NCBI GenBank assembly: GCA_002428565.1
Contig: DIXA01000036.1
Location: 5,321-69,320 of the forward strand
Source of the DNA: Anaerolineales bacterium UBA6092
GTDB taxonomy: Bacteria; Chloroflexota; Anaerolineae; Anaerolineales; UBA4823
Direction: 5' to 3'
Length of the DNA: 64,000 bases
Shown here: positions 4,448-64,000 of the stretch, piece after piece
Layout: each line of letters begins with the position of its first letter
Position numbering within the stretch: position 1 is the stretch's first letter
Made by a program: the position numbers and the translations under genes
Notes under the pieces: model-generated
Database searches by the model: none
Told to the model about the DNA's origin: nothing
The model's input: only the letters and a program-made list of their open reading frames with translations

Positions 4448-4452
4448 ATGAT

Positions 4453-5213: not shown

Positions 5214-5225
5214 ATACTAGGGGGC

Positions 5226-6221: not shown

Positions 6222-6374
6222 CCAGAACGGGGTTCGGGATGAACCTCCTTCCCGCTTCTCAGGTATATCAGACAGGCACTTACGTTGCCGTCTGTTGCAC
6301 GAAGTAACATTGCAAAACATAGGGTTAGCTTGCCAGGTAGCCCGTTAAAAACAGGGAGTATTCTCACAGGGAGC

Positions 6375-7343: not shown

Positions 7344-7509
7344 GATCTCATAATGGGCCTGGCCGCCTCGATCCGAAGGTATCTGGCGCACCGGCCCAGG
7401 CGATCGAAGCGGGCCCCCCTACATCCATTCATGGTAGACTACGGATGGCTACATTCAAGGAGCAATACTGAGGGGCATAGAGATACTACATAATGAATGG
7501 AGAGTAGCT

Positions 7510-8166: not shown

Positions 8167-8429
8167 AAGCCGAACCAACGGGGAACCCAGCCCACCCACC
8201 TTCCGTTGACGGGGAGTTTTGATTACACCCAAAATTTGACCGCAAAAATACCCTGGTCAACCCGAAGTGCTACTTCAAAAAAAGTGCGCGGAAAAAGCGC
8301 CACCCACTATTCCAATGCCGCCACGACGACTACCACTTTTAAACTGAACTGACGACTGGGGACAGGTCGGTCTTTCACTCAACCTGTGTCCCCACCTGTC
8401 ACACCGTGTCATAAAACCTGTTTCCGCCA

Positions 8430-8458
8430 TTGACAAGTTGCTCCAACCCCTCTAAACT
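8430..8458 (+). promoter_or_regulatory. putative sigma70-type promoter giving a leaderless or near-leaderless comM mRNA
   Basis: TTGACA (8430-8435), a 17-nt spacer, then TAAACT (8453-8458). The comM ATG is at 8465 and there is no Shine-Dalgarno sequence between them. Confidence 0.4.
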
Positions 8459-8464
8459 TATCTC

Positions 8465-21396: not shown

Positions 21397-21478
21397 GGTG
21401 CTCTATAATCTGATTTGTGTATCCGATAAGCTTGTATTTCTCACCCCCGCCCTCACCGAGAACCTCACATTGTGTGTA
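21397..21478 (+). repeat. conserved junction linker, copy 1
   Basis: GGTGCTCTATAATCTGATTTGTGTATCC...CTCACCGAGAACCTCACATTGTGTGTATC matches 49119-49200. It is absent upstream of the equivalent point in intact comM. Confidence 0.7.
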
Positions 21479-21919
21479 TCCCTGTCCTTGCGGTTATTTC
21501 AATGACGCCGTCAAGCCCTGCACCTGCTCCTCCAGCACCGTCACCAAGTACCAGAAGCGCATCTCTGGGCCGCTGCTCGACCGCATCGACATCCACATCG
21601 AGGTGCCGCGGGTGGAGCCGTCGGGGCGAAGCATTCGCCGCATGACGCCGCGACAGACAGAACCTCTCTGGCGAATGCTTCGCCCGTACAGTGTAATGCC
21701 GACATGCGCCCGGCGGAGGTGCGCCAATTCTGCGACCTGGATGACACCAGCCGCAGCCTGATGAAGACGGCGATGAACCAGTTGCAGCTCAGTGCGCGGG
21801 CGTATCACCGGATATTGAAATTGGCGCGCACGATCGCAGATTTAGCGGGGAGTGAAACGATTGGCCCCAGCCATTTGGCGGAGGCGCTGCAGTATCGTCC
21901 GCGGGGGATGATGGGGTGA
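21479..21919 (+). pseudogene. comM: comM 3'-end remnant (copy 2)
   Basis: Homology to comM begins at the equivalent of about position 9509 (CCCTGTCCTTGCGGTTATTTCAATGA). A deletion of about 95 nt after PRVE shifts the frame. The last approximately 180 nt, including the stop, are identical to intact comM. Confidence 0.85.
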
Positions 21920-49200: not shown

Positions 49201-49762
49201 TCCCTGCCCTTGCGGTTATTTCAATGATGCCATCAAACCCTGCACCTGCTCCTCCAGCACCGTCACCAAGTACCAGGAGCATCGTTCTGGGATGCCCGCA
49301 TCTCTGGCCCGCTGCTGGACCGCATTGACATCCACATCGAGGTGCCGCGCGTCGAATACGAAAAACTGAGCGACAGCCGTTTTAGCGAATCTTCGGCTAC
49401 CATCCAGGCGAGGGTGGAGGCGGCGCGGCAACGCCAGCGCGAACGTTTTGCCGTCGGGGCGAAGCATTCGCCGCATGACGCCGCGACAGACAGAACCTCT
49501 CTGGCGAATGTTTCGCCCGTACAGTGTAATGCCGACATGCGCCCGGCGGAGGTGCGAGCGTTCTGCAACCTGGACGACACCAGCCGCAGCCTGATGAAGA
49601 CGGCCATGAACCAATTACAGCTCAGCGCGCGGGCGTATCACCGCATATTGAAGCTGGCGCGGATTGGCGCGGACGATTGCAGATTTAGCGGGGAGTGAGA
49701 CGATCGGGCCGAGTCACCTGGCGGAGGCGCTGCAGTATCGTCCGCGGGGGATGATGGGGTAG
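49201..49762 (+). pseudogene. comM: comM 3'-end remnant (copy 3)
   Basis: Same left breakpoint as copy 2. It has an insertion of about 22 nt after ...TKYQ and a 10-nt duplication (GATTGGCGCG) near the end, so the frame is broken. It ends at TAG 49760-49762. No S-type repeat follows. Confidence 0.85.
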
Positions 49763-49884: not shown

Positions 49885-51519
49885 GTGAATTCACAACGCT
49901 GCGCGGTAAAAGTTCTGCGCCCCACTCAAGCGACTTTATTCGGATGGAGTCATTCCCGTTCGCCCGAACCAATCTCGCAAAGTTCATTGTCGTCAAATTT
50001 AGCCAATCTAGACCAGCCATTTTTCCTTCTCCAAAAAGATGACGGTTATTTCAGCGCCAACGATGGGCAAGCCTCGCAGCAAAGCGAGAATTCCTTCCAA
50101 GTAATCGGCCTGTGCCCTGAATTAAGCCCTTTTGATCTGGGCGATCCAGCCTTCAAAGCAACGTATGGGATGAAGTATTCTCTTTACGCAGGCTCCATGG
50201 CAAACGGAATCTCCTCTGAGGACATGGTCATCGCATTGGGGAATGGGGGGTTTATGGGCTCCTTTGGGGCCGGTGGTTGTTTGCCAACCCGCATTGAAAA
50301 AGCCATCCACCGTATTCAAAATGAACTGAATGGCAAACCCTACTTATTCAACCTGATCAACAGCCCTTTCGAGCCTGCATTAGAAGCCAGAACGGCAGAA
50401 TTGTATATCAAACACGGTATTCGCGCGATCGAAGCCTCGGCTTATGTGGCACTCACTTCAAATCTTGTGTGGTACCGCCTGGCTGGATTGTCTCGATTGC
50501 CGGATGGATCCATAAAGATCAACCATCGGATCATTGCCAAGGTGTCTCGTAAAGAGGTGGCACAAAAATTCCTGGCCCCCGCAGAACAAAGTATTGTCAA
50601 CCAGTTATTGGCAGAAGGAAAAATCACCGAAGAACAGGCGCGCTTATCGCAGTACGTTCCCACGGCTGATGATATTACCGTTGAAGCGGATTCGGGCGGT
50701 CATACCGATAACCGCCCATTGGTTAGCATTTTGCCAGCCATCCTCCAGCTGCGAGACTCGCTCCAGGATCAATATCAATTTCCCCAACCAACCAGGATCG
50801 GGGCAGCCGGTGGCATTGCCACCCCCGCTTCGGCGCTGGCGGCATTCATGATGGGGGCAGCCTACATCACCACCGGCTCTATCAATCAAGGATGCGTTGA
50901 GTCGGGGGCATCGGAACATAGCAAAAACCTGCTTTCCCAAATGGAAATGACCGATGTGGCCATGGCTCCGGCAAGCGATATGTTTGAGATGGGGGTAAAG
51001 GTTCAGGTGCTCAAGCGCGGAACCATGTTTGCCATGCGCGCTCAAAAGCTGTATGAAGTCTACCAGAGATACGAGTCAGTTGAAGAAATTCCAGCGCCTG
51101 AGCGAGAAAAATTGGAAGCCACGATCTTTAAGCGGAGCATGGATTCGGTGTGGAATGAATGTGTGAAGTTTTTCGGTGAGCGCGATCCCAAACAGATCGA
51201 GCGAGCCAATCAGAAACCGAAAGACAAAATGGCGCTCATATTTCGTTGGTATTTGGGCCTGTCTTCTCGCTGGTCTAACAGTGGAGAAAAAGGCCGTGAG
51301 ATGGATTATCAAATCTGGTGCGGCCCTGCCATGGGCGCATTCAACGATTGGGTCAAGGGGACGTATCTCGAAAAACCGGAAAATCGCTCCGTTACGGATG
51401 TTTCGATGCATATTCTGAGAGGGGCTGCATTCCTATGGAGGATCCGCATGCTCGAAGCACAGGGACTTCGTTTCGCGGACGAAATCTGCAAATACATTCC
51501 CACGGATCGGTTGATGTAA
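49885..51519 (+). CDS. pfaD: PfaD-family trans-acting enoyl reductase (nitronate-monooxygenase fold)
   Basis: GTG start with GGAGG 6 nt upstream. 544 aa containing YSLYAGSMANGISS, EADSGGHTDNRP and GAAGGIATP blocks typical of PfaD. Confidence 0.85.
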   Translation: MNSQRCAVKVLRPTQATLFGWSHSRSPEPISQSSLSSNLANLDQPFFLLQKDDGYFSANDGQASQQSENSFQVIGLCPELSPFDLGDPAFKATYGMKYSLYAGSMANGISSEDMVIALGNGGFMGSFGAGGCLPTRIEKAIHRIQNELNGKPYLFNLINSPFEPALEARTAELYIKHGIRAIEASAYVALTSNLVWYRLAGLSRLPDGSIKINHRIIAKVSRKEVAQKFLAPAEQSIVNQLLAEGKITEEQARLSQYVPTADDITVEADSGGHTDNRPLVSILPAILQLRDSLQDQYQFPQPTRIGAAGGIATPASALAAFMMGAAYITTGSINQGCVESGASEHSKNLLSQMEMTDVAMAPASDMFEMGVKVQVLKRGTMFAMRAQKLYEVYQRYESVEEIPAPEREKLEATIFKRSMDSVWNECVKFFGERDPKQIERANQKPKDKMALIFRWYLGLSSRWSNSGEKGREMDYQIWCGPAMGAFNDWVKGTYLEKPENRSVTDVSMHILRGAAFLWRIRMLEAQGLRFADEICKYIPTDRLM

Positions 51520-52269
51520 TCATCGAACCCTGGAAAAATTGAGAGACTCTCGTTCTTCGATACAAATCGTCAAAATAAAATCACCCTCCCTGCGCCAGAA
51601 TAGGCGCAGGGTTTCTTGATCACCAACGATGGATGCAGAAAAGCCAATGGGATTCCAGCCGTCGATCGAAGGCCCTGGCGTTTGCACATCTACACTGATC
51701 GAACGCGTATCCACTTTCAAACCGATGGAAAGTGCTTTCAAAATGGCTTCTTTGGCGCTCCAGGCTAAAGTGGCCAATACGGCCGAATCGCCGATTTGGC
51801 GAATCTCCTCCTGGGTAAAGAAATCTTGCACGAACTCCTGTGATCGTGTTTCAATCCGTTCTGCATCTGCGCCCAGGCGAATATTTTCTCGAGAGCAGGC
51901 ACACAGAACATAGCCGTTCGAATGGCTGATCGAGATTTGCGTGGCAGGATGTTGATTTCCATCGAGCAGGATATAGGGGGCGCCGCTTTGCCCTTTCAAG
52001 ATCTGTTTGGCTTGCATTTCATACTGAGCAAAGCCACCCTCTACCGAGCATAGGAGCCGTTTCATCGCAATACGGCTGGCAAGCCACTCCTTACGCCGTT
52101 TGCTGAAGCGAAGCGTTTTTAGAAAGGTTATTTCTTCTGTGCCCAGATACGGAATGAACTCACCTTCTTTCTCTTCGGTGAGCCCCGTATCCATTGCGGT
52201 AAAAGACCAAAAGATCATCATGGTGTGGTTTCTCCCCGGGAAAAGCAGCTTTCCCGGGGAGATGATCAC
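51520..52269 (-). CDS. Sfp-type 4'-phosphopantetheinyl transferase
   Basis: ISISHS, then GADAERIE (the Mg-binding D..E motif), then WSAKEAILKA. The start is ambiguous (52269, 52221 or 52194). The 3' end abuts pfaD convergently. Confidence 0.8.
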   Translation of the reverse strand: MIISPGKLLFPGRNHTMMIFWSFTAMDTGLTEEKEGEFIPYLGTEEITFLKTLRFSKRRKEWLASRIAMKRLLCSVEGGFAQYEMQAKQILKGQSGAPYILLDGNQHPATQISISHSNGYVLCACSRENIRLGADAERIETRSQEFVQDFFTQEEIRQIGDSAVLATLAWSAKEAILKALSIGLKVDTRSISVDVQTPGPSIDGWNPIGFSASIVGDQETLRLFWRREGDFILTICIEERESLNFSRVR

Positions 52270-52279
52270 GTTGCATAGA

Positions 52280-55200
52280 TTATGGGTTAGAAGCCGTAAC
52301 GAGTTTCTTTAAAGGCGCAACCAATTGCTGCTCTGCCGGGTAAGGGAATGCTGAAGTGCGGTAATCGGTCATTTCGAGGAATACGTCTCCCTTCGCATCC
52401 ACCACCCGGGCATCGAAAGAGTAGGTCTCGCCATGCAGATGCGGTTTCACTTCGGCATAGATGGCGACACCATTGATTGGCTGTTTGAAGATCTTGAGCG
52501 TTCCCACCGATTGCGGAAGGGCTAAAGTTCCCGTGGCGCCCACTTCATACAACCCTGCTGTCTGGAAGCACATTTCGATCAGCAGCGGTGTGGTGAGCAA
52601 AGAGGGATCATCAACACCTACTTTAACCAATTTCTTGTTGAATTTTCCCAGCAGTGAGCCATTTGCCGCCTGTGCTGATTCCAATACCTGGAAGGAAGGG
52701 CCATGGAAATACAAGTTGTAGATCTCTCTAGATGAAACGATATCCTTTTCACTCCATTTTGGGGGGGCAACAACGCGCTTGCTCTTCTGCTCGCCTGAGA
52801 TGAGGAAAACGTTTCCTGAGAAGTGCAGCGAGTGCTCTACTTCGCCATTGCGCCGGGCGATATCCGATTCAAGCGTCACTTCAAGTTTGATGCCTTCTGG
52901 CTTGCGGTAAGCCACTGCGTTCCATTGGATGGTTCGAGTTTTGTTGCCATAGAATTTGAAAGGAGAAAGGAACTGAATATTCTCCATGTGCTCTACATCG
53001 AACACACCGTTATTGGAGCCTAACACAGAAGCAATGTGCTTGGCCGCCACCGAAAAACCCTCGATCCCCATGACACCTGGCAATACAGGGGTTCCGTTGA
53101 TCGTGTGGTCGCGCAGATAAGCCACCTGCGTGGGGTCAAGGTCGGCTTCCAGGCGAATGCCCTGGTCGATGCTGAAGCTCGTCAGACGGCTGAACATTTT
53201 GTGGATGGGTTTCCCCTGACGCAAGGCTTCGTTCGCGGCCTGAACATCCACCCCGCAATCTCCGCTGCAGGCTGCCTCCAGCGTCCCCAGAGAGCCGGCG
53301 ACAACGTATTCGCCGCTCAAGCCCAGTTGAAGCGCTGCCCTCACCATCGGGGCCGCGGCTGCAGGCTTGAGCATCTCGATCCCGGCGCGCTCCATTAACA
53401 TCGGGATATTGCCGCGGCTGGCCATGCCCACTTCGGCCCAGGCGCCCCAGTCGATCGAGATTGCTCCCATGCCCGGATATGCATTGGGCAGCCACGCAGA
53501 GAACTTTGAAAGCAGATCATTGGCTGCGCTGTAATCGGTCTGCCCCGCATTGCCAAACCGGCCTGCCACCGATGAGAAAAATACCACCGAACCCGGCAGC
53601 AACTTTCCCTTTTCTAGTGTGCTGAGCAAGAAGTAGAAGCCATCTGCTTTCACTGAGATGGTCTGCTCAAACTCGGCGCTTGTTTTGCTTTCGATCTTGC
53701 GGCTCTTTTCGACACCCGCGGCGTGGATCAAGGTATCGACATGATCGGTAGCACGCTCGATCTCATGCACAGCCGCTTCAATGGATCGTTGATCGGTTAC
53801 ATCACAAACGATGTAATTCGCTCTTCCTCCACTGGCCCGGATTGCCTCCATCACCTCCAGCATGGCCGCGGCTCGCTCCAGGGCCATCACGCGCTGATCG
53901 AGCTGGACCGGGGTGGCTTTTTCGCCCTTTTCGTGCAGCCGTTTTTGCAGTTCCACTCGATAGGCGTTGCGATCGGCCTTGACCATGTCGATATCCTGGT
54001 CGTCCTGCGACGGGAGCGGTGTGCGGCCGAGCAAGAAAAATGAACCTTGCGTGGCCCGGGCAAGATCCAGCAGCACCGCTCCTGTAATTCCGCCGGTAGC
54101 GCCGCTGACCACAAAAACACCGTTTCGCGGCAGGGCGACCTGCGTGATGCCTTCCGAATGGACCTCTCTCAGCGAGACCGCATAACGAGATACATCGTCG
54201 TACCCGATCTCTGTCGTCACAGGATCATGCAGGGTTTCTTTGATCAAGGCGTCGGCAACGTTTGCCTCTTTGCGCGCAGATGGGAAGTCGATCACTTTGA
54301 TCAACTGGCCCGGTCTTTCGTGCCGCAAGGCTTTGATAAAGCCACTGATCAATCCACCCAGGGGATTTTCGCTGTTGAGCAGGCCCAGCAACCCCCCCAT
54401 CGCTGTGGCGCCGATCAGGAAAGCCGATTCTGGCAAGACTTTGGCTAGCTCAAACAAGGGATTGAGACTCTGTGCTCTTTGCTGCACCCACGTTTCAGGT
54501 GTCAGGGCCTTCCAATTGATTGTCTCATCCAGCGCGGTCAGGTAATAAACGCCCTCCAGGTTTCCCGCTTTGGCCAACTGGTCAATTTTTTCGACCGCAG
54601 ACATCGGATCGACAACTACCGGGATGGCCTTCATAGCCTTCAGTTTCTTGGACAATGCATGGCTTACTTTTGCGGAATTGGCCACGATCACGACCTCGCG
54701 GTCTGCCAGATGCACTTGCGTGCCGGAACACAATTCAACCTTTGGGATCATCACCAAGGTGGGCGCTCTGAAGGCCAATACAGCATCCGCCTGCGCTGTG
54801 ATACTCTCTGACCCAACCGGAGAAGGAACTGCAGGTTTTGGCGAGTCGATCGTTTTTGGATGGGCCTCTTTGATAACCGGTTTGTTTTGCGCGCCCAGGT
54901 TTTCTTCAACAAAAGCGATCACCCGGTCAAGCGTGTTGTAATCGGCCAGGATCAAATCTTCGCGGCGGGGAATACCATAATGGGTACGAATGGCGGCAAA
55001 CAGCTCGGCTTGCTTCACGGTATCGATGCCGAGGTCTGCCTCCAGGTCAAGGTCCAGATCGAGCATTTCAACCGGATAACCGGTTTTCTCGCTCACTTCA
55101 GCAAGCACATGCTGCTGGATGGCCTCCTTTTCGGGGTTGATCGCGGCCTGAGGCGCTGGGATAACTGCCTGTGCCACCGGCTCTTGAACCTCGACTTTGG

Positions 55201-58200
55201 CTGGCAGCAAGGAAGGAGTTGTTGCCCTCGTCTCATGAACACTGGGCTGCCTCACGCTATCCGACATGACCCAAAGGGTTGGCACCTGTCCATAATGCCA
55301 TGAGGCGCTGCGCGGATCACGGGTGGGCACCCCCTGGTCTTTGATGCGCAGCGTTCTTTTCACCAATTCGGTCTCGGCGTGGTCGTGCCCGCTCACTGCA
55401 GACAGCCATCCGGTATATCGTTGGCGGTCAACTCTTTCGCCTACCCCCGGGATTTTACGCACGAGCGTCATTGCAATTTGCGAACCAAACCCGGCGCCCA
55501 GGCGCAGCGCGTATTGCGGGTTATAAACGCCACCTTTGGAGAGGTTTAGATCTCCCAATTCGGGATCGGGCTCAAAACCTTCCTGAATATTGGCGATGGG
55601 AGGCACAATTCCGGTTTCCAATGCTTTGATGGCCACAACATCTTCAATGCCCACTCCCATGGAGTGACCGGTGAAACCTTTGGTATTGGCCACAATCACC
55701 TGGTTGGCGGCATTGCCAAAGCAGTAACGCAGGGCGCGAATTTCAGCGCTTGCGCTCCCGCCTCGCGCGGGAGTGTAGGTTTCGTGTGACATGAACACGG
55801 TTTCATGAGCGATGCTCTGGCGATGGATGCCAAACCGGCTCTCAGCAGTCTGAAGGAGACGGTCCATCACCTCGCTCACGTGTTGTGTATCAAGCCGCGT
55901 ACCATGGAATGCGCTATTGGCTGTGTGGGTGGAGAGGATTTCTCCAAGTCCACGTACACCACGCTCACGCGCAGCATCTTCGCTCTCGATCACCAGCGCG
56001 GCGGCGCCCATGCCCATGATCAGGCCGTTACGCCGCCTATCAAACGGGGTGGCCGCCAGGCGCAAATCGCCTTCTGTTGTTGCCGCGCCGCTGGCAAACA
56101 GGCTGGAGCCTACCCAGGCGAGAGAGTTTTCTCCGGTCACATCATCACCGGCAATGACCACCACACGGCGGCAGCGCCCGGTGCGGATCCAATCTTCTGC
56201 AACCGAAACCGCGTGGGTGGTTGTGGCGCAAGCATCATTTACATGGGTGTTCGGCCCGCGTGCCCCAATATACTCTGCAAATTGAGAGTGTCCCATCGAG
56301 AGTACGCGGAATATATATTTGCGGTCAAAATGATAATCAACCTCTTTGATTTTCGCTTCGAGCGCCTCTGCTCGTTGGTGCAGTTCATCCAGCAGCGGCA
56401 ATGGCCCATTCTCGCAAGACGCGCTTAACGATTGGATGAGTGAACGTACTTCTTGGAGCTGGCTTTCAAGGATCTTCGCTTCGTAGAAATGGCCTGCTTC
56501 TTCAACGACCCGATTCAAGCCCGGAAATGCTGAGCCGAAGATGATGCCCGTATCATCGCGCATGGATTCTGGCAATTTCCACCGGTCTGGCAACCAGCTT
56601 CCTTTCGTGGTGCGGCGGTAAGACATCACCAAGGGAATCCCCGCATCCCGCAGTGCTTCAATACCGGCAGCAATGGCCAGTTTGGAAGAAATATCCAACG
56701 AATCCACCTTCTCTTCGGGAATGCCGAATTCATCGACCAGATCAAACTCGCCCGCCTGGCCGGCAAATTTCAAAACCTGGTCGAGATCCGTGATCTCTTC
56801 CATCACTGCTCCGGCATCGCTTTTTACCAACCGCGTTACGTGTTTATCCAGGATCGCCCTGCGTGAGTGATCGCTGAGCGATTCGATGCGCATATCGCCG
56901 CGAAGAATGCGCTCGAAATTATCGTCGCCAAAAACATGGTTTTTTCTACCGGGCAAACCCAGGCCAAGGCCGGTGATAACCACTGAGCCGGTGATCGGGA
57001 GCGTGCCATCATCCCCGACAACCTGGGACCGAACTCCGTTGACCTGAGCGGGTTGTTCGCCGGGCTGATCGGCCCGGTCTGAGCTTTGCATTGGTTCCGC
57101 CGCAGGAACCCCGGCCGCGTAGATGCCGCATAGCGCTTCGTTGAAGCTGGCCTTACCACCTTTGCGAGGATGATTGGTAGCAATGATGGTTACATCCTCA
57201 TGATCTTTGAGGTTATCTTGCGCCAAAGCATTGAGCACACGTTTGGGGCCTGCTTCGATAAAAACACGCGCCCCTTCACGGTAGAGCGTCTGCATGCCTT
57301 TGACGAACTGCACTGGTGAGGCCACCTGGCGGGCAAGAATATCCAAAATCTCTTCTCGTTCCGAGGGGTAGAGCTCACCGGTCACATTGGCAACAATGGG
57401 CAACTGCGGTTTTTGCACGGTCATGCGCGCAATCACCGAGCGTAAAGGCTCGCTGGCGGACGCCACGATTTTTGTATGGAAGGCATGTGAAACCGGCACC
57501 TTGACCGCCTGGAACCCTTCGGTGGTAAATTTTGAAATTGCCAGATCGATCGCCTCAGAAGAGCCCCCCAACACAGATTGCAACGGGCTGTTGATATTGG
57601 CGATCACCACGTAACCATCGATCGATTGAATCACCTGCTCCACCTTTTCTAGCGGAGCAGATACAGCCGCCATGCTACCGGGATCGCCCATATTGAACTT
57701 GCTCATCTCTCTGCCTCGGGCGCTGACCACTTCCAGGGCTTGGGCAAAGGTCAAAACACCGGCTGATACCAGGGCGGCATACTCTCCCAGGCTGTGACCC
57801 ATCACCATATCGGGATAGACCCCATACTTATTGAGCACACGCATGAGCGCAATATCGGCGGTCAGCATCGCCGGTTGGGTGATGGCTGTTTTTTTGAGCT
57901 CTTGTTCGGCTTGTTTCAGTTCCTCGTCTGAGCCATCCGTGTAAATAAAACTGGTCAGGGGCCTGCCCAGAAGGGGCGTCATCACCCGATCTGCCTCGTC
58001 AAAGGTTTCGCGCACCAGGGGTTCCGTGTCGCGCAGGTCTAGCAGCATATTGACATATTGAGACCCCTGCCCGGGGAACAAGAAAGCCACTTTGCCGGGT
58101 TTACCGCCACCCCGGTATACCCCATGCGGCTGCATGGCTTTCCAGGTTACCGGCGATTCGTTCTCGAAGGCGGCCAAGGTCTTTTCTAATCGATGCGCCA

Positions 58201-60262
58201 ACTCGTCAAGGCTGGCAAAATCGATGGCGATCCTTTCTGCTTTTCCAAGCTCATTTTGGGTCGGGCAATGCGAGTCATAAGAATTGCCTGATCGCAAAGC
58301 AGTCAGTTGCTCTTTGATCTTTGTCTTCAGCCCTGGAATGTCATCTGCCGAGGCAAAGAAAAGCCCCTGGTAAGGCATTAATTCATGATCCTGGTTCTTT
58401 ACCATGGGTCGATCTGGCGAAACGCTTGGAGTGGTGTTTTCGTCTTTGGCCAAAGTTCCTTCGGTTGGGGTTGCGCCGTTATCCAATGCCTCTGTGACAA
58501 AGCCAACCACTTTTGCCAGCGTGTTGTAATCGGACAGTTTCAAGTCTTCCCGGCGCGGGATGCCATAATTGGCGCGCACCGCGGCAAACAATTCGGCTTG
58601 CTTAACCGTATCAATGCCAAGGTCAGCTTCCAGGTCAAGGTCCATCTCGAGCATCTCAACCGGGTAACCCGTCTTCTCACTGACCGCGGTCAAAACATAC
58701 TGTTCGACCGCCTCTACCTCCACACTGGCAGACGAGTGAATTTCTGTCATGTCATTCGATGCGGGTGGCGCCTCTGAAAGGCTTCTATCTGTCACCGTTT
58801 CAATCCTTTCCGGCAGAGAAAAAGAAGCCGCAGCCTTCCCTGACACCCCGGGGAAGTATTCTTCCAGAACGACGTGGAAGTTCGTGCCCCCAAAGCCAAA
58901 CGCGCTCACCCCCGCAAAACGATAATGGTTGCTCTCCACTTCCCATTCCTGGGTGGTATTGAGCACGCGAAATGGCAGGTTAGCAAAATCAAGATTGGGG
59001 TTTGGCCTCTCAAAATTGACCATGGGGGGCAAGGTTTTATGGTGTAAAGCCAGGATGGTTTTCAATAATCCGGCCGCGCCGGCTGCGCTTTTGAGATGCC
59101 CAATATTGGATTTCACGGAACCCAGCACAACGCTGTTCCTTGTCAGCCCCAGCGAGCCAAAGATCGCATTCAAGCTGTTGACTTCGGCTGCATCACCAAC
59201 TTTGGTAGATGTTCCATGTCCTTCCACCAGGCCTATCGCTTCTGGATTGACCTGGGCATCTTGCCAGGCGCGAGTGATCGCCAATTGCTGCCCCAGAGGG
59301 TTAGGAGCGGTGATCCCTTTGCCTTTGCCGTCTGAGCTGCCGCCAATCCCTCGAATCACTGCGTAGATCTTGTCGCCATCCCGTTCGGCGTCTTCGAGCC
59401 GCTTCATGAGGAAAGCGACCGCGCCTTCTCCCATCACAAATCCATTTGCGCCATCCGCGTAAGGCCGCGATCCATCGGGGCTAAGCGCCCCAATTTTGCT
59501 GAATTTGATGTAAGTTTCTGGCCCCATGTGGCGATCGATGCCGCCGGTGAGCACGGCATCAAATTTTTTCTCGAGCAAACCCTGGCAGGCGATTTGAACC
59601 GCGGCCAAAGAAGACGCACACGCCGCATCGACAACGAAATTGGGGCCGGTGAAGTTGAATACATTTGCCACACGACCGGAAATAATGTTGGATAATTCGC
59701 CTGGCATCGTATCTTCCGTGATCGCCGGCGATTTGGCGCGGATGTTTTCCGTAAACCCCTGGATCAACTCATCTCTGGATGATTCCGGAAGGTGCTTGAA
59801 TTCGGGGATATCTCGAAGCGCCTGGAGATATTCAGGCAAAAGGATTCTGAAAGTGGAGCGATATTGATATTCGCCGGCGTTGGCGTTGCCGAAAATGACC
59901 GCCACCCTTTCGGGATCCAGCTTCCGTTCGGGGTAACCAAAACAATTCAACGCTTGCTGGCTGACCGCGATGGCCCAGTGCTGCGTTTGGTCCATCTCAG
60001 CCAGCACTTTCGGCGGAATCGCCAGCCCATTTTTCAGAGGATTGAACTGGTAATCGCGCACGAATGCGCCAATCTTCGAATAGGTCTTATCGATGGCAGA
60101 ACGATCGGGATCGTAATATAGATCGATGCGCCACCGGTCTGCTGGCACTTCGATCACGGAGTATCTGCCCTGGATGATATTGTTCCAAAAGGTGGGAACA
60201 TCAAAGGCATCGGGCAAAACTGCGCCCAAGCCAACAATTGCGATCATTTTTCCGTTGTTCAT
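52280..60262 (-). CDS. PfaA-like iterative type I megasynthase, KS-CP-AT-KS-CP-KR-DH
   Basis: The start was set at ATG 60262 (GGAGGC upstream; MNNGKMIAIVGLG). Motifs in order: KS1 DAACASS (Cys codon 59618-59620), HGTSTKVGD and NIGH. Carrier-like LEADLGIDTVKQAELF. AT GQGSQ, GHSLGEY and HAFH. KS2 NDACATT, SHETYTP and GFTGHS. A second LEADLGIDTVKQAELF. KR GATGGITGA...YSAAN. DH HTINGTPVLPG. Confidence 0.9.
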   Translation of the reverse strand: MNNGKMIAIVGLGAVLPDAFDVPTFWNNIIQGRYSVIEVPADRWRIDLYYDPDRSAIDKTYSKIGAFVRDYQFNPLKNGLAIPPKVLAEMDQTQHWAIAVSQQALNCFGYPERKLDPERVAVIFGNANAGEYQYRSTFRILLPEYLQALRDIPEFKHLPESSRDELIQGFTENIRAKSPAITEDTMPGELSNIISGRVANVFNFTGPNFVVDAACASSLAAVQIACQGLLEKKFDAVLTGGIDRHMGPETYIKFSKIGALSPDGSRPYADGANGFVMGEGAVAFLMKRLEDAERDGDKIYAVIRGIGGSSDGKGKGITAPNPLGQQLAITRAWQDAQVNPEAIGLVEGHGTSTKVGDAAEVNSLNAIFGSLGLTRNSVVLGSVKSNIGHLKSAAGAAGLLKTILALHHKTLPPMVNFERPNPNLDFANLPFRVLNTTQEWEVESNHYRFAGVSAFGFGGTNFHVVLEEYFPGVSGKAAASFSLPERIETVTDRSLSEAPPASNDMTEIHSSASVEVEAVEQYVLTAVSEKTGYPVEMLEMDLDLEADLGIDTVKQAELFAAVRANYGIPRREDLKLSDYNTLAKVVGFVTEALDNGATPTEGTLAKDENTTPSVSPDRPMVKNQDHELMPYQGLFFASADDIPGLKTKIKEQLTALRSGNSYDSHCPTQNELGKAERIAIDFASLDELAHRLEKTLAAFENESPVTWKAMQPHGVYRGGGKPGKVAFLFPGQGSQYVNMLLDLRDTEPLVRETFDEADRVMTPLLGRPLTSFIYTDGSDEELKQAEQELKKTAITQPAMLTADIALMRVLNKYGVYPDMVMGHSLGEYAALVSAGVLTFAQALEVVSARGREMSKFNMGDPGSMAAVSAPLEKVEQVIQSIDGYVVIANINSPLQSVLGGSSEAIDLAISKFTTEGFQAVKVPVSHAFHTKIVASASEPLRSVIARMTVQKPQLPIVANVTGELYPSEREEILDILARQVASPVQFVKGMQTLYREGARVFIEAGPKRVLNALAQDNLKDHEDVTIIATNHPRKGGKASFNEALCGIYAAGVPAAEPMQSSDRADQPGEQPAQVNGVRSQVVGDDGTLPITGSVVITGLGLGLPGRKNHVFGDDNFERILRGDMRIESLSDHSRRAILDKHVTRLVKSDAGAVMEEITDLDQVLKFAGQAGEFDLVDEFGIPEEKVDSLDISSKLAIAAGIEALRDAGIPLVMSYRRTTKGSWLPDRWKLPESMRDDTGIIFGSAFPGLNRVVEEAGHFYEAKILESQLQEVRSLIQSLSASCENGPLPLLDELHQRAEALEAKIKEVDYHFDRKYIFRVLSMGHSQFAEYIGARGPNTHVNDACATTTHAVSVAEDWIRTGRCRRVVVIAGDDVTGENSLAWVGSSLFASGAATTEGDLRLAATPFDRRRNGLIMGMGAAALVIESEDAARERGVRGLGEILSTHTANSAFHGTRLDTQHVSEVMDRLLQTAESRFGIHRQSIAHETVFMSHETYTPARGGSASAEIRALRYCFGNAANQVIVANTKGFTGHSMGVGIEDVVAIKALETGIVPPIANIQEGFEPDPELGDLNLSKGGVYNPQYALRLGAGFGSQIAMTLVRKIPGVGERVDRQRYTGWLSAVSGHDHAETELVKRTLRIKDQGVPTRDPRSASWHYGQVPTLWVMSDSVRQPSVHETRATTPSLLPAKVEVQEPVAQAVIPAPQAAINPEKEAIQQHVLAEVSEKTGYPVEMLDLDLDLEADLGIDTVKQAELFAAIRTHYGIPRREDLILADYNTLDRVIAFVEENLGAQNKPVIKEAHPKTIDSPKPAVPSPVGSESITAQADAVLAFRAPTLVMIPKVELCSGTQVHLADREVVIVANSAKVSHALSKKLKAMKAIPVVVDPMSAVEKIDQLAKAGNLEGVYYLTALDETINWKALTPETWVQQRAQSLNPLFELAKVLPESAFLIGATAMGGLLGLLNSENPLGGLISGFIKALRHERPGQLIKVIDFPSARKEANVADALIKETLHDPVTTEIGYDDVSRYAVSLREVHSEGITQVALPRNGVFVVSGATGGITGAVLLDLARATQGSFFLLGRTPLPSQDDQDIDMVKADRNAYRVELQKRLHEKGEKATPVQLDQRVMALERAAAMLEVMEAIRASGGRANYIVCDVTDQRSIEAAVHEIERATDHVDTLIHAAGVEKSRKIESKTSAEFEQTISVKADGFYFLLSTLEKGKLLPGSVVFFSSVAGRFGNAGQTDYSAANDLLSKFSAWLPNAYPGMGAISIDWGAWAEVGMASRGNIPMLMERAGIEMLKPAAAAPMVRAALQLGLSGEYVVAGSLGTLEAACSGDCGVDVQAANEALRQGKPIHKMFSRLTSFSIDQGIRLEADLDPTQVAYLRDHTINGTPVLPGVMGIEGFSVAAKHIASVLGSNNGVFDVEHMENIQFLSPFKFYGNKTRTIQWNAVAYRKPEGIKLEVTLESDIARRNGEVEHSLHFSGNVFLISGEQKSKRVVAPPKWSEKDIVSSREIYNLYFHGPSFQVLESAQAANGSLLGKFNKKLVKVGVDDPSLLTTPLLIEMCFQTAGLYEVGATGTLALPQSVGTLKIFKQPINGVAIYAEVKPHLHGETYSFDARVVDAKGDVFLEMTDYRTSAFPYPAEQQLVAPLKKLVTASNP

Positions 60263-60506
60263 GTTTTTAGCCTCCAAAGCCAATTTTAGGTAATAGAAAT
60301 ACCTTCCATCAGGAGCGGGCTTGCCTCCCGGGACTAGAATGCGGCGCTTGCTTGTCAAGAATTAGGGTTTACTTAATTTGATAGTGTCACATCAGGTTCT
60401 TTCTGGGCGCAAAAAGCGGTAGGGATGTGCGTTTTGCGCCGATCAGATCCTTTCAGCATTTCTTCGAGCCTGGGCAATCGAATATCTCTGAGTTGCCTTT
60501 TGAAGT

Positions 60507-60992
60507 TCAATTGACTCGAATGATCTCTTTTCCTTTTTCAACTTGCTCGCCTGCTTGATACAGCACAGAAACCACAGTACCGGCGCTGGCTGTGCGCAAT
60601 TGCATTTGCATTTTCATCGACTCGAGTACAGCCAGGGTTTGATCCTGCTCGACGACATCGCCTACTTTCGCCAAAACGCTGACCAACACACCGGGCATGG
60701 GCGCGGTAATTGTTCCGACCTCTGCCCTTGCGGCTTGATGGCGGACGCGTTTTTGCGATGTTTTTACTTTTGCCAACACGCGTTGGCCTCCGACGAGGAT
60801 TTCAAGATGATCTCCATCGAGAGAGTTCAGGTGGAGTTCCATCGACTTCTTGCCGCGCTGCAATACATGCAAGCCCAATTCATTGATTGGCCTTAAATCT
60901 CCTGAGACTGGTTTGCCGTTTACTTTGAGGTGGCGTCCATCCAGGTGAACGTTGTATTCGTTTTTGCCGATGGTTATGTAGTACAAAGACAT
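60507..60992 (-). CDS. biotin carboxyl carrier protein
   Basis: C-terminal biotinyl domain with LESMKMQMQL (the MKM biotinylation lysine). Confidence 0.8.
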   Translation of the reverse strand: MSLYYITIGKNEYNVHLDGRHLKVNGKPVSGDLRPINELGLHVLQRGKKSMELHLNSLDGDHLEILVGGQRVLAKVKTSQKRVRHQAARAEVGTITAPMPGVLVSVLAKVGDVVEQDQTLAVLESMKMQMQLRTASAGTVVSVLYQAGEQVEKGKEIIRVN

Positions 60993-61010
60993 TCTTCCTC
61001 CTCTTCCTTG

Positions 61011-62489
61011 TCACATCTGCTCAGACCATGCGGTCTGTAACCAGGTATTTGTGTTTTCATCCTGAGGAAGTACTTGAACTTCGCGCTGCTGGTGGGTAAA
61101 TAAAGCCGCCGCTAAAGCAACTGCTTTTTCTAGCTCAACATCTTGATGCGCGGGCGGCAGCTTCACCTTTTCGAGATAAGTGGTATCCACATCACCTTCC
61201 ACAAATTTGGCACTGGTGATCAGTTGCTTCAGGAATTCCAGGTTGCTGCAAATGCCACCCATTTGGAATTCATCCAAGGCGCGCAGTAAACGCTGGATGG
61301 CGGAATGGCGGTTTTCTCCCCAGGCAATTATTTTGGCCAGGAGGGGGTCATAATCTACAGTGATTTCAATCCCTGGATACAGGGCGCTGTCAACTCGAAT
61401 GCCGGGGCCGCCCGGTTCTCTTAAGTAACTGATCGGGCCTGTGGAGGGCAAGAAATCCCTGGCGGTATCTTCGGCAAGCACCCTGGCCTCAATGGCTGCC
61501 CCGCGGATTTCCACCTGCCCCTGTGCGAGCTCCAGGGGGTGCCCAAGCGCAATCATCAATTGTTCCTTGACCAGGTCCAACCCGGTGACCATTTCAGTAA
61601 CCGGGTGCTCTACCTGGATGCGCGGATTAACCTCGATGAAGTGGAAATTGTTTTGCTTGTCCAGCAAAAATTCTACTGCTCCGAGGCCCCGGTATTTCAG
61701 GCTGCTTCCCAGCTTTTGCGCGGCCTGGCACATGCTGGCGCGGATCGATTCTGGCAGGCAAGGCGCCGGTGATTCCTCGATCAATTTTTGATGGCGGCGT
61801 TGAATCGAACACTCCCGTTCGCCCAAACAAACCACCTTGCCCTGACCATCTCCGATGATCTGGACTTCAATGTGACGCGCCTGTTGAACCATCGATTCGA
61901 GAAAGACACTGTCGTTTCCAAATGCAGCCAGGGCTTCTTGCCGCGCCGCCTCAATCACTTGCGGCAGCTCTTCTGCCGATTTTGCGAGACGAATGCCGCG
62001 CCCGCACCCGCCAACGGAAGCTTTCACTAACACCGGATAGCTAACCTGATAGGCCATCTCAACCGGGAGCTCCTGCGGGAGCGGTTGGTCTGATCCCGCG
62101 AGCACGGGCAAGCCGGCTGCGAGAGCCGCCTGACGAGAAGCCAGTTTATCTCCCAACAAGGCGAGGGTTTCCCAGCGGGGCCCGATGAAAATCATGCCAT
62201 GCTCTTCAACCGCTTTACAAAAAGCGCTGTTCTCAGATAAAAACCCATATCCTGGGTGGATCAGACTCGCATTGGTCTTTTTTGCTGCGGCGATGATCTT
62301 TTCAGCATCCAAATACGAGGATCGATCACCAATCAAGACCGCTTCATCGGCATAACGGAGATGTAAGGCGAGCTGATCGGAATCGGTATAAACTGCAACC
62401 GTGGGAATCCCTAATTCGCGGCAGGCGCGCAACACTCTTAGAGCAATCTCCCCTCGGTTTGCAACCAACACTTTTTTGACGTTTTCCAT
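61011..62489 (-). CDS. accC: biotin carboxylase subunit of an acyl-CoA carboxylase
   Basis: KVLVANRGEIALRV, ATP-grasp GGCGRGIR, EVNPRIQVEHPVTE, and a C-terminal extension of about 45 aa. Confidence 0.9.
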   Translation of the reverse strand: MENVKKVLVANRGEIALRVLRACRELGIPTVAVYTDSDQLALHLRYADEAVLIGDRSSYLDAEKIIAAAKKTNASLIHPGYGFLSENSAFCKAVEEHGMIFIGPRWETLALLGDKLASRQAALAAGLPVLAGSDQPLPQELPVEMAYQVSYPVLVKASVGGCGRGIRLAKSAEELPQVIEAARQEALAAFGNDSVFLESMVQQARHIEVQIIGDGQGKVVCLGERECSIQRRHQKLIEESPAPCLPESIRASMCQAAQKLGSSLKYRGLGAVEFLLDKQNNFHFIEVNPRIQVEHPVTEMVTGLDLVKEQLMIALGHPLELAQGQVEIRGAAIEARVLAEDTARDFLPSTGPISYLREPGGPGIRVDSALYPGIEITVDYDPLLAKIIAWGENRHSAIQRLLRALDEFQMGGICSNLEFLKQLITSAKFVEGDVDTTYLEKVKLPPAHQDVELEKAVALAAALFTHQQREVQVLPQDENTNTWLQTAWSEQM

Positions 62490-62515
62490 GGTCGGGTTTC
62501 CCTAAGGTTGAAAAA

Positions 62516-64000
62516 CTACAGGGGGATATTTCCGTGCTTGCGCTTTGAAACCGATTGACGTTTATCGCGTAAAACCTCAAACGCCTGGATCAATCGCGCA
62601 CGGCATTCTTCGGGTTGGAGGATATCGTCCAGGTATCCACGAGCGGCAGCCACAAGAGGGGTGGCCAGGTCTTGGCGATATTTTTGGATAAGCTCCTTTT
62701 GACTGGTATCTCGGTCTTCAGCAGCCTCGATCTCTTTGCGAAAGACGATATTCACCGCGGCTTCGGGGCCCATGACGGCGATCTCTGCGCCTGGCAGCGA
62801 GAAATTCATATCGCTGCCCAAATGCTTAGAACTCATCACGATATAGGCGCCGCCATAGGCTTTGCGTAAGATCAGTGCCACCTTTGGAACCGTTGCTTCT
62901 GCGTAGGCATAGATCATTTTGGCGCCGTGGCGGATAATGCCACCATATTCCTGCTCAGCGCCAGGCATAAACCCCGGTGTGTCAACCAGGGTAAGCAAAG
63001 GGATGTGGAAGGCGTCACAAAACCGGATAAACCTTGCGCCCTTATCGGAGGCATTGATATCTAAAACGCCTGCCAATGTGTCTGGTTGATTGGCGACCAC
63101 CCCGACGGTGTGACCATTGAGATGCATGAATCCAATCACCAGGTTGGTGGCATAGCCGCTCTGAATTTCCAGGAATTCTCCGTTATCGGCAATGGCCTCG
63201 ATTACTTGCAGAACATAATAGGGCTGTTGAGGGTTTTGGGGGATCAAATCGGCAATTTCGGCGGTGAGGCGGTTTGGATCATCACCCGACGAAACCGTTG
63301 GCGGAGCCATTAAATTGTTTGAAGGTAAAAAGGATAACAACCAGCGCACATTTTGTAATAACGACTCTTCGTCGACGGCGGTGAAGTGGGCCACCCCGCT
63401 GCGGCAGCGATGCACCTCGGCGCCACCCAGCTCTGTGGCACTGATATCCTCATGGGTAACTGTGCGCACCACTTCAGGCCCGGTGATGAACATGTGAGCA
63501 TTGTTCTCAACCATGAACACAAAATCAGTGATCGCCGGGGAGTAAACGGCGCCTCCCGCACAGGGGCCAAGAATGATCGAGATTTGGGGAATAACACCCG
63601 AAGCGCGCACATTGCGGTAAAAAATATCGCCATAACCGGCTAATGCATCCACTCCCTCTTGAATACGGGCGCCGCCCGAATCGTTCAACCCAATCACGGG
63701 GGCGCCATTTTGCAGCGCCAGGTCCATCAGGTGGGCGATCTTTTTCCCATGCGCTTCTCCCACCGAGCCGCCCATCACGGTGAAATCTTGCGCAAAAAGA
63801 TAGACGGTGCGCCCATCGATCTTCCCCCAGCCGGTCACCACGCCATCTCCATAGGGATGGCTTTTTTCCATGCCAAGGCCAACGGCACGATGCGTTGTGA
63901 ACATGCCAATTTCCTGGAATGTTCCAGGATCCAGTAATTTTTCAATTCGTTCCCTGGCAGTGGCTTTCCCTTTTGCATGTTGAGCTTCAATCCGCTCTTT
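62516..64000 (-). CDS. acyl-CoA carboxylase carboxyltransferase subunit (PccB/AccD5-like); 5' end lies outside the window
   Basis: The frame stays open to the window edge (KERIEAQHAKGKATARERIEKLLDPGTFQEIGMF...). Later come DSGGARIQEG and a duplicated crotonase-like CT fold. Confidence 0.85.
   Translation of the reverse strand, partial: KERIEAQHAKGKATARERIEKLLDPGTFQEIGMFTTHRAVGLGMEKSHPYGDGVVTGWGKIDGRTVYLFAQDFTVMGGSVGEAHGKKIAHLMDLALQNGAPVIGLNDSGGARIQEGVDALAGYGDIFYRNVRASGVIPQISIILGPCAGGAVYSPAITDFVFMVENNAHMFITGPEVVRTVTHEDISATELGGAEVHRCRSGVAHFTAVDEESLLQNVRWLLSFLPSNNLMAPPTVSSGDDPNRLTAEIADLIPQNPQQPYYVLQVIEAIADNGEFLEIQSGYATNLVIGFMHLNGHTVGVVANQPDTLAGVLDINASDKGARFIRFCDAFHIPLLTLVDTPGFMPGAEQEYGGIIRHGAKMIYAYAEATVPKVALILRKAYGGAYIVMSSKHLGSDMNFSLPGAEIAVMGPEAAVNIVFRKEIEAAEDRDTSQKELIQKYRQDLATPLVAAARGYLDDILQPEECRARLIQAFEVLRDKRQSVSKRKHGNIPL

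What the first reader, a model, noticed from the sequence alone, without database searches (positions are those of the whole stretch)
49885..64000. Compact PfaA-like megasynthase cluster with an embedded second KS and its own three-gene acyl-CoA carboxylase
Gene order on the minus strand is carboxyltransferase, biotin carboxylase, BCCP, a 2,660-aa KS-CP-AT-KS-CP-KR-DH synthase and an Sfp-type PPTase. A PfaD-type enoyl reductase converges on them. Canonical PUFA synthases split KS-MAT-ACPn-KR-DH (PfaA), AT (PfaB), KS-CLF-DH2 (PfaC) and ER (PfaD). Here one polypeptide holds two apparently active KS domains: DAACASS/HGT/NIGH, and NDACATT/SHET/GFTGHS with a roughly 150-aa insertion. Each KS is followed by a single carrier-like domain, with one HAFH (malonyl-type) AT. 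No FabA-type DH pair, CLF, thioesterase or other release enzyme is present in the window. A dedicated carboxylase implies a private malonyl-CoA (or other carboxy-acyl-CoA) supply. The product is not predictable from sequence; candidates are a long-chain saturated or mono-unsaturated secondary lipid, an alkyl chain or an olefin precursor. The cluster continues beyond the right edge of the window.
Basis: partly seen in the sequence, partly recalled or inferred. Interest (0 to 1): 0.66.

Follow-up and report, generated by a model that had tools for sequence, protein, structure and literature searches.

The report
Self-contained two-ketosynthase lipid synthase island
A six-gene island in an Anaerolineaceae genome encodes a complete fatty-acid-type assembly line with its own malonyl-CoA supply. 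It belongs to a very widespread synthase family (Shulse & Allen 'Type R') with no characterised product that I could find, and its carrier domains carry threonine where every known carrier has the cofactor-bearing serine.

Summary
On the minus strand lie a carboxyltransferase, a biotin carboxylase, a BCCP, a 2,660-aa KS1-CP-AT-KS2-CP-KR-DH synthase and a PPTase, with a convergent PfaD enoyl reductase.

Two corrections apply.
- The cluster does not continue past 64000. Only 54 codons of the carboxyltransferase are missing, and a histidine operon follows.
- The architecture is not unique. It matches the 'Type R' secondary-lipid synthase catalogued in 2011, whose product was uncharacterised. At least 585 species genomes carry the family.

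KS2 is a FabF-fold enzyme with invariant Cys/His/His, so it is not a chain-length factor.

This Anaerolineaceae clade is a variant in three ways.
- PfaD replaces the acyl-CoA dehydrogenase/ETF system that every other sampled clade places upstream.
- The carboxylase has three subunits instead of one chain.
- A carrier domain sits between KS1 and AT.

Most likely it is an autonomous, iterative, fully reducing fatty-acyl synthase fed by its own acetyl-CoA carboxylase.

Two further findings:
- Nearly all carrier domains in the family have Thr at the phosphopantetheine site.
- The cluster is a low-GC island bracketed by comM 3' fragments.

The product and the release step remain unknown.

The parts
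49885..51519 (+). PfaD-family FMN enoyl reductase (544 aa), acting in trans and convergent on the PPTase gene with no gap
   Evidence: TIGR02814 at 650.9 bits, cut-off 449. Pfam NMO. It is found next to the synthase only in the Anaerolineaceae clade, in 17 loci, and never together with the ACAD.
51520..52221 (-). Sfp-type 4'-phosphopantetheinyl transferase (233 aa)
   Evidence: Pfam ACPS 2e-12. The GxDxE and WSxKExxLK catalytic motifs are conserved across 55 cluster-linked homologs. A PPTase lies in the flanks of 51 of 81 loci, directly after the synthase or after the carboxylase gene.
52280..60262 (-). 2,660-aa megasynthase KS1-CP1-AT-KS2-CP2-KR-DH
   Evidence: JGI calls the same 2,660-aa gene.
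58856..60244 (-). KS1, a PKS/PfaA-type ketosynthase with Cys-His-His (DAACASS, HGT, NIGH)
   Evidence: PF00109 and PF02801. Best NCBIfam is TIGR02813 PfaA, positions 9-468. Nearest PDB entries are type I PKS ketosynthases.
58496..58702 (-). CP1, a carrier domain between KS1 and AT, with Thr552 (codon 58607-58609) at the attachment position
   Evidence: PF00550. Aligns to E. coli ACP Ser36. A carrier at this position occurs only in the Anaerolineaceae clade.
57155..58084 (-). Acyltransferase with malonyl-type motifs (GHSLG, HAFH)
   Evidence: PF00698 at 1e-49. TIGR00128 FabD at 214 bits. Motifs located.
55451..56995 (-). KS2, a FabF-fold ketosynthase with Cys1345/His1493/His1533 and a helical-hairpin insertion
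   Evidence: Cys/His/His are invariant in alignment A1. FabF is the best match by sequence and by predicted fold, TM 0.76-0.83.
54908..55108 (-). CP2, a carrier domain with Thr1748 (codon 55019-55021) at the attachment position
   Evidence: PF00550. In the AF2 model the Thr is the first residue of helix II. CP2 is 74% identical to CP1 at the DNA level.
53432..54121 (-). Ketoreductase catalytic subdomain (YSAAN Tyr). The likely structural subdomain lies upstream, about 54122-54808
   Evidence: PF08659 at 5e-31. Motif located.
52331..53200 (-). PKS-type (PS-DH) dehydratase with HxxxGxxxxP (HTINGTPVLP)
   Evidence: PF21089 and PF14765. Motif located.
60507..60992 (-). Biotin carboxyl carrier protein (161 aa)
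   Evidence: PF00364 at 1e-18.
61011..62489 (-). Biotin carboxylase (492 aa)
   Evidence: PF00289, PF02786 and PF02785. NF006367 at 579 bits.
62516..64000 (-). PccB/AccB-type carboxyltransferase, cut by the window edge (516 aa in full; start at about window-equivalent 64066)
   Evidence: PF01039 at 8e-182. PDB 1vrg 9e-199 and 1xnw 5e-185. Motif RKAYGGAYIVMS. Full gene seen in L001.
49202..49759 (+). Decayed 3' fragment of comM that marks the left boundary of the island. A matching fragment lies about 290-640 bp beyond the right edge
   Evidence: tblastn and blastn against the intact comM at 8465-10042.

Best explanation
The six genes form an autonomous, iterative, type-I fatty-acid-like ('secondary lipid') synthase. 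It is a variant of the Shulse & Allen 'Type R' family.

Proposed mechanism (all steps inferred from domain identity unless marked):
1. The three-subunit biotin carboxylase makes malonyl-CoA from acetyl-CoA.
2. The single malonyl-type AT loads malonyl units onto the two carrier domains.
3. The cluster's own Sfp-type PPTase has first activated those carriers, presumably on the conserved Thr.
4. KS1 (PfaA/PKS-type) and KS2 (FabF-type) both condense. They probably divide the work by chain length.
5. KR, the PS-type DH and the trans-acting PfaD reductase complete each cycle. The result is a largely saturated long acyl chain.
6. No thioesterase is encoded. Release is probably by back-transfer to CoA through the AT, or by unlinked acyltransferases.

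Shown here: the domain content, the intact catalytic residues, the conservation of the family and its synteny, and the ER swap. Inferred: the division of labour between KS1 and KS2, the degree of saturation, modification of the Thr, and the release route.

The cluster is a compositionally foreign 14.5-kb island.
For: - Complete set of elongation and reduction functions, with catalytic motifs intact.
- KS2 has invariant Cys/His/His and a FabF fold.
- The AT carries GHSLG and HAFH.
- The carboxyltransferase is closest to short-chain PCC/ACC beta subunits. It has Ile in GGAYIVM, at the position I recall as S. coelicolor PccB Asp422 / AccB Ile420, which favours acetyl-CoA.
- A carboxylase is linked to the synthase across phyla in three different gene forms.
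- The ER slot is always filled. PfaD is present in 17 Anaerolineaceae loci. An ACAD, with or without ETF-alpha/beta and an FeS-CCG protein, is present in about 55 others. The two never occur together. The ACAD's best NCBIfam match is the reductive acryloyl-CoA reductase AcrC.
- The PfaD-type loci form one clade in the KS2 tree.
- The PPTase keeps its catalytic motifs.
- A WS/DGAT acyltransferase lies upstream in 13 acidobacterial loci.
- The architecture and the ACC link match Type R (PMC3098273).
Against: - No product is known for any member of the family, as far as I could find.
- No release enzyme is encoded in the island.
- ER use in every cycle is assumed, so partly reduced products are not excluded.
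- It is unproven that Thr can be phosphopantetheinylated.
- Only 3 of 17 PfaD-type loci have the carboxylase adjacent.
- The acetyl versus propionyl call for the carboxyltransferase rests on one residue recalled from the literature.
Confidence: 0.58

Rival explanations
1. The synthase is programmed like heterocyst-glycolipid or PUFA synthases. The ER and/or DH act only in some cycles, so the product is a very long hydroxylated, keto or unsaturated chain rather than a plain saturated acyl chain.
For: KS1, KR and DH are PfaA-like. Two different KS domains suggest programmed steps. The carriers occur in tandem, up to seven per protein in relatives, as in PUFA and Hgl synthases.
Against: There is no FabA-type DH/isomerase, which canonical PUFA synthesis uses to make cis double bonds. 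A dedicated trans-ER is conserved in every clade. No glycosyltransferase or reductase tailoring genes are linked.
Confidence: 0.2
2. This is the organism's primary fatty acid synthase, and the adjacent carboxylase is its housekeeping acetyl-CoA carboxylase. The adjacency is ordinary operon organisation.
For: The gene set is sufficient for de novo fatty acid synthesis. No type II fab genes occur in the 64-kb window. Most PfaD-type relatives keep their carboxylase elsewhere.
Against: The cluster has 53% GC against 59-62% in both flanks. GC3 is 0.61 against 0.73-0.79. It is bracketed by comM 3' fragments, so it looks acquired. The family is scattered across many phyla; from general knowledge, lineages such as Acidobacteriota and Mycobacterium have their own fatty acid synthases (not tested here). 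The rest of the host genome could not be inspected.
Confidence: 0.1
3. It is a Pks13-like head-to-head condensation system. The carboxylase makes a 2-carboxy long-chain acyl-CoA, and KS2 condenses it with a chain built by KS1, giving a branched mycolic-like or ketone/olefin precursor.
For: Two active KS domains, a carrier on either side of the AT, and a co-located acyl-CoA carboxylase loosely recall AccD4 plus Pks13. NCBIfam Pks13 scores 413 bits, far below its cut-off of 2100.
Against: The carboxyltransferase groups with short-chain PCC/ACC beta subunits at about 1e-185 to 1e-199, against 1.9e-131 for the chain 9t97_D4a (deposited as 'propionyl-CoA carboxylase beta chain'; the D4 label suggests an AccD4-type subunit). 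In other phyla the partner is an ACC with the eukaryote-type ACC_central domain. The AT is malonyl-type. Carrier positions vary freely: 0-4 before the AT and 0-7 after KS2. There is no FadD32-like ligase or TE.
Confidence: 0.05
4. KS2 is a non-catalytic chain-length factor, as labelled for Type R in 2011. The system then has a single working KS.
For: Shulse & Allen annotate this position as CLF. Its Pfam KS scores are weak.
Against: Cys, His and His are invariant in 26 diverse homologs. They align to the FabF catalytic residues. The predicted fold is FabF, TM about 0.8. The NxACAxx motif recurs in most of 43 full-length family members.
Confidence: 0.05

Closest known systems
'Type R' secondary lipid synthase cluster (Shulse & Allen 2011, PMC3098273: Koribacter, Solibacter, Elusimicrobium, Roseiflexus)
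   Same: One PfaA-like protein with a second KS-like domain after the AT, followed by carrier domain(s) and KR, and a neighbouring PPTase. An acetyl-CoA carboxylase gene lies in the Koribacter cluster. The product was uncharacterised in 2011.
   Different: - KS2 is clearly catalytic-looking rather than a CLF.
- There is one carrier after KS2 and one before the AT, instead of 3-6 after KS2.
- The carboxylase has three subunits and lies upstream. In the acidobacterial loci I sampled it is a single-chain ACC between the synthase and the PPTase.
- A PfaD ER is linked. The 2011 description lists no ER. I find ACAD/ETF in the other clades.
Canonical PUFA synthase pfaABCDE (Shewanella, Moritella)
   Same: PfaA-like KS1, malonyl AT, KR and PS-DH. 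PfaD enoyl reductase. Sfp-type PPTase. Iterative use of carrier domains with an LGID(S/T)(I/V)K motif.
   Different: - No PfaB.
- No PfaC (KS-CLF plus two FabA-type DH).
- A FabF-like KS is fused inside the PfaA-like protein.
- Own carboxylase.
- Thr instead of Ser in the carriers.
Heterocyst glycolipid synthase HglE/HglC and Azotobacter ArsA-D (Types F and P)
   Same: PfaA-related iterative synthases that make long acyl or alkyl chains for specialised lipids.
   Different: Those clusters have a separate KS-CLF-AT protein or type III PKS partners, plus tailoring genes. None of these is present here.
Type I fatty acid synthase with multidomain acetyl-CoA carboxylase (animals, fungi, Corynebacteriales)
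   Same: All elongation and reduction activities plus a carrier are on or around one megasynthase and are paired with ACC. Release to CoA by a transferase domain, without a TE, has a precedent in fungal and CMN-bacterial FAS.
   Different: - Different domain order.
- Two KS domains.
- The ER acts in trans.
- The sequences show PKS/PfaA ancestry rather than FAS-I ancestry.
Pks13 with AccD4/AccA3 (mycolic acid condensation)
   Same: A multi-carrier PKS co-operating with an acyl-CoA carboxylase.
   Different: The carboxyltransferase here is of the short-chain type. KR, DH and ER are present. There is no TE and no FadD32.

Membership tests
Type R secondary lipid synthase (Shulse & Allen 2011) | A single PfaA homolog with the order KS, MAT, second KS-like ('CLF') domain, ACP(s), KR | tested here: met
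   Pfam on separate segments gives KS1-CP-AT-KS2-CP-KR-DH. All 67 loci with both ends of the synthase share the KS1-AT-KS2-CPn-KR-DH core. The extra carrier before the AT is a clade-specific variation.
Type R secondary lipid synthase (Shulse & Allen 2011) | A PPTase gene downstream of the synthase | tested here: met
   PPTase at 51520-52221, 58 bp after the synthase stop. A PPTase lies in the flanks of 51 of 81 loci.
Type R secondary lipid synthase (Shulse & Allen 2011) | The KS groups phylogenetically with the Koribacter, Solibacter, Roseiflexus and Elusimicrobium KS | tested here: inconclusive
Homologs with 50-58% identity and the same architecture occur in Korobacteraceae, Bryobacteraceae, Kouleothrix and Roseiflexaceae MAGs. 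The acidobacterial loci show the synthase-ACC-PPTase order described for Koribacter.
Canonical PUFA synthase (pfaABCDE) | PfaC: KS-CLF plus tandem FabA-type DH/isomerase domains | tested here: not met
   No FabA-type DH and no separate KS-CLF protein in the cluster or elsewhere in the window.
Canonical PUFA synthase (pfaABCDE) | PfaA scores above the TIGR02813 cut-off | tested here: not met
   942.5 bits against a cut-off of 1010.1.
Canonical PUFA synthase (pfaABCDE) | PfaD-family enoyl reductase | tested here: met
   TIGR02814 at 650.9 bits against a cut-off of 449.25.
   Cys282, His430 and His470 of the query segment are invariant in A1 and align with the FabF catalytic residues.
Phosphopantetheine-dependent carrier protein (PF00550) | A conserved Ser at the N-terminus of helix II as the attachment site | tested here: not met
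   - Thr occupies this position in both window carriers.
- Thr occupies it in 271 of 271 carriers in 84 genomic synthase ORFs.
- Across 266 database proteins the count is 478 Thr to 8 Ser.
- The fold and the rest of the motif are met.
Acetyl/propionyl-CoA carboxylase (PccB/AccB-type beta subunit with BC and BCCP) | Carboxyl_trans domain closest to short-chain acyl-CoA carboxylase beta subunits, with BC and BCCP partners | tested here: met
   Acetyl-CoA preference is inferred from Ile in GGAYIVM and is not testable here.
Pks13/AccD4-type condensation system | Long-chain-specific carboxyltransferase, C-terminal TE, FadD32-type ligase | tested here: not met
   The carboxyltransferase is closest to PCC beta. 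There is no TE or ligase in the island.

The most novel reading that the evidence does not exclude
The carriers of this whole family are phosphopantetheinylated on threonine by the co-clustered, divergent Sfp-type PPTase. As far as I could find, this would be the first natural Thr-linked phosphopantetheine. It may insulate a horizontally mobile, self-sufficient lipogenesis module (ACC, synthase, ER and PPTase) from the host's own carrier-modifying enzymes.
Probability: 0.4. Interest if true: 0.78.

Novelty: new variant of a known kind. Interest (0 to 1): 0.55.

Why it matters
This family is among the most widely distributed uncharacterised PKS/FAS-like systems. It occurs in at least 585 species genomes across Chloroflexota, Acidobacteriota, Actinomycetota, Myxococcota and other phyla. 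These include abundant soil and wastewater lineages. I found no product reported for it.

The comparison made here gives testable rules:
- a conserved carboxylase partner;
- an obligatory trans-ER slot, filled by either PfaD or ACAD/ETF;
- two catalytic KS domains;
- carrier domains that can be moved around within the protein.

The compact 14.5-kb island in this window carries every needed function. That makes it a convenient unit for heterologous expression to identify the product.

The near-universal Thr at the cofactor site challenges the textbook rule that phosphopantetheine is attached to serine. Mass spectrometry can test this directly.

Tried and rejected
- Whole-synthase and PfaD searches of the 5.8-billion-protein database timed out. 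I used the KS2-CP2 segment and an acidobacterial KS2 instead.
- BLASTP of E. coli ACP against CP2 gave nothing. A Smith-Waterman alignment did.
- Ten literature searches found the 2011 catalogue but nothing else relevant. They found no product for Type R, no paper on the DTVKQAE motif and no report of Thr-linked phosphopantetheine.
- The Elusimicrobium genome paper is not held.
- I tried to name cultured hosts through cluster membership. Only generic names came back.
- The locus of a rare Ser-type relative (P0195, L087) is cut at the contig end, so its PPTase could not be compared.
- I rejected a long-chain acyl-CoA carboxylase, a CLF reading of KS2, and continuation of the cluster beyond 64000.
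- I looked for an integrase to explain the comM-fragment repeats and found none. There is no Rfam family in the repeat.

Full report
**1. What is there**

The ORF list and profile searches confirm six genes:
- a PfaD-family enoyl reductase at 49885-51519 (+), TIGR02814 at 651 bits against a cut-off of 449;
- an Sfp-type PPTase at 51520-52221 (-);
- a 2,660-aa synthase at 52280-60262 (-);
- a BCCP at 60507-60992 (-);
- a biotin carboxylase at 61011-62489 (-);
- a PccB-type carboxyltransferase from 62516 to the window edge (-).

Pfam run on eight separate segments gives the order KS1, PP-binding, AT, KS2, PP-binding, KR, PS-DH.

**2. Boundaries**

The window matches a 149-kb JGI metagenome contig in reverse orientation. 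That contig shows the carboxyltransferase is 516 aa. Only a small ORF and hisGDCBHAFIE lie beyond it. On the left of pfaD lie a beta-propeller/PKD surface protein and other unrelated genes. The cluster is therefore six genes and does not continue past 64000.

**3. KS2 is a real ketosynthase**

- In an alignment with 25 homologs of 49-62% identity, the Cys, His and His are invariant.
- They align with the FabF catalytic residues in the best PDB match.
- FabF is the best NCBIfam match.
- An AlphaFold model (pLDDT 77, pTM 0.76) superposes on FabF with TM 0.76-0.83 normalised to the target.
- The model has about 135 extra residues. These include two long helices at residues 186-245 of the modelled segment.

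KS1 is PfaA/PKS-like.

**4. The family**

The KS2-CP2 segment finds more than 1,150 proteins at E <= 1e-10. They come from Chloroflexota, Acidobacteriota, Actinomycetota, Proteobacteria, Myxococcota, Calditrichota and Bacteroidota. The family-specific N-terminal half of KS2 finds 791 clusters at 50% identity among 1.84 billion proteins. The nearest are Anaerolineaceae MAGs at 60-75% identity.

Shulse & Allen (PMC3098273) described 'Type R' as one pfaA homolog, KS-MAT-CLF-ACP(3-6)-KR, plus a PPTase. They found it in Koribacter, Solibacter, Elusimicrobium and Roseiflexus. An ACC gene lies between the two genes in Koribacter, and the product was uncharacterised. The acidobacterial loci I fetched show exactly that order. 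I found no later characterisation. NCBI names for these proteins are generic.

**5. Synteny in 80 related loci**

- The core KS1-AT-KS2-CPn-KR-DH is constant, and a PPTase gene lies in the flanks of 51 of 81 loci.
- Carrier number and position are fluid: 0-4 between KS1 and AT, one case between AT and KS2, and 0-7 after KS2.
- A biotin carboxylase is linked in most loci, in three forms:
  - CT-BC-BCCP upstream (this window, L016, L023);
  - PPT-CT-BC-BCCP downstream (other Chloroflexi);
  - a single 1,750-1,890-aa BC-BCCP-ACC_central-CT protein between the synthase and the PPTase (Acidobacteriota and others).
- The reductase slot shows a clean swap.
  - PfaD is present in 17 loci, all in one Anaerolineaceae clade of the KS2 tree.
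  - An acyl-CoA dehydrogenase of about 550 aa lies directly upstream of the synthase in about 55 other loci.
  - That ACAD often comes with ETF-beta, ETF-alpha and an FeS/CCG oxidoreductase.
  - PfaD and the ACAD never occur together.
  - The ACAD's best curated match is the reductive acryloyl-CoA reductase AcrC.
  - I read this as non-orthologous displacement of a trans-acting enoyl reductase. That argues the family is fully reducing.
- A WS/DGAT acyltransferase lies upstream in 13 acidobacterial loci.

**6. The carboxylase**

The carboxyltransferase is closest to short-chain propionyl/acetyl-CoA carboxylase beta subunits (1vrg 9e-199, S. coelicolor PccB 1xnw 5e-185). It reads RKAYGGAYIVMS. 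From memory, the residue after GGAY is Asp422 in PccB and Ile420 in AccB and governs acetyl-CoA acceptance. Ile here therefore favours malonyl-CoA production. This fits the HAFH malonyl-type AT. It is a lead, not a test.

**7. Threonine carriers**

Both window carriers read DLGIDTVKQAE. E. coli ACP Ser36 aligns with the Thr. In the model the Thr is the first residue of helix II.

The same holds across the family:
- all carriers in the first 120 homologs;
- 271 of 271 carriers in 84 genomic synthase ORFs;
- 478 Thr against 8 Ser across 266 database proteins.

The few Ser cases (P0195, P0197, P0200) keep the same architecture and read LEADLGIDSVKVAE. So Ser and Thr exchange at one functional position.

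The linked PPTase keeps the Sfp-type catalytic motifs. It is remote from every solved PPTase. I found no report of Thr-linked phosphopantetheine.

The most economical inference is that the cluster PPTase modifies the Thr. This is unproven.

**8. Island structure**

An intact comM/yifB gene lies at 8465-10042. Decayed copies of its last ~180 codons, in the same orientation, lie at three places:
- 21471-21916;
- 49202-49759;
- about 290-640 bp beyond the right edge, between the carboxyltransferase start and hisE.

The last two bracket exactly the six genes. The cluster has 53.4% GC (GC3 0.61). The his operon has 62.4% GC and the segment to the left of the cluster has 59.5%. GC3 values measured outside the cluster are 0.75 for hisD, 0.73-0.78 for two genes in the left segment, and 0.79 for comM. 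This looks like serial insertion of islands into the 3' end of comM. No integrase is present, so the mechanism is unexplained. The foreign composition argues against the cluster being the host's primary FAS or housekeeping ACC.

**9. Verdict**

The locus is a clade-specific variant of a catalogued family for which I found no characterised product. It has PfaD as the ER, a three-subunit ACC, and a carrier before the AT.

The best model is an autonomous, fully reducing acyl synthase with two catalytic KS domains, fed by its own ACC (confidence about 0.58). The product, the KS division of labour, the release step and the Thr modification are all open.

Noticed in passing
window 8465-10042, 21471-21916, 49202-49759, and about 64286-64641 (L001 7849-8204): An intact comM/yifB gene is followed by three decayed, same-strand copies of its 3' end. 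They split the region into segments of 11, 27 and 14.5 kb. The last segment is exactly the lipid cluster, which has lower GC. This looks like serial island insertion into comM, but no integrase is present.
   Followed up: partly
window 58607-58609 and 55019-55021; loci L005-L084: The carrier domains have Thr instead of the phosphopantetheine-bearing Ser. This is nearly universal in the family (271 of 271 in genomic loci; 478 Thr to 8 Ser in database proteins). I found no literature on it.
   Followed up: partly
loci L024-L084 (for example L041 1299-6883 and 15510-21107): Outside Anaerolineaceae the synthase is preceded by an ACAD, often with ETF-alpha/beta and an FeS-CCG oxidoreductase. It is followed by a single-chain BC-BCCP-ACC_central-CT carboxylase of about 1,865 aa that resembles eukaryotic ACC. 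WS/DGAT lies upstream in 13 loci.
   Followed up: partly
window 4663-4782 (-) and 4960-5064 (-): Two tandem c-di-GMP-I riboswitch aptamers (36 and 57.5 bits, both above the gathering score). They lie upstream of a methyltransferase-like gene (UPF0020/RMKL) at 3447-4433 (-).
   Followed up: no
window 51519/51520 and 51588-51611 (+): The pfaD and PPTase genes converge with no intergenic bases. The best terminator-like hairpin for pfaD lies inside the 3' end of the PPTase coding sequence.
   Followed up: no
L007 1715-6398: In a close Anaerolinea relative, an NRPS module (C-A-T-TE) and a second PPTase lie directly upstream of the synthase, where this window has the carboxylase genes.
   Followed up: no
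window 1-9869: The matching JGI contig (TOLCLC_10004475) ends at window position 9870. The window must therefore come from a longer assembly of the same or a near-identical genome.
   Followed up: no
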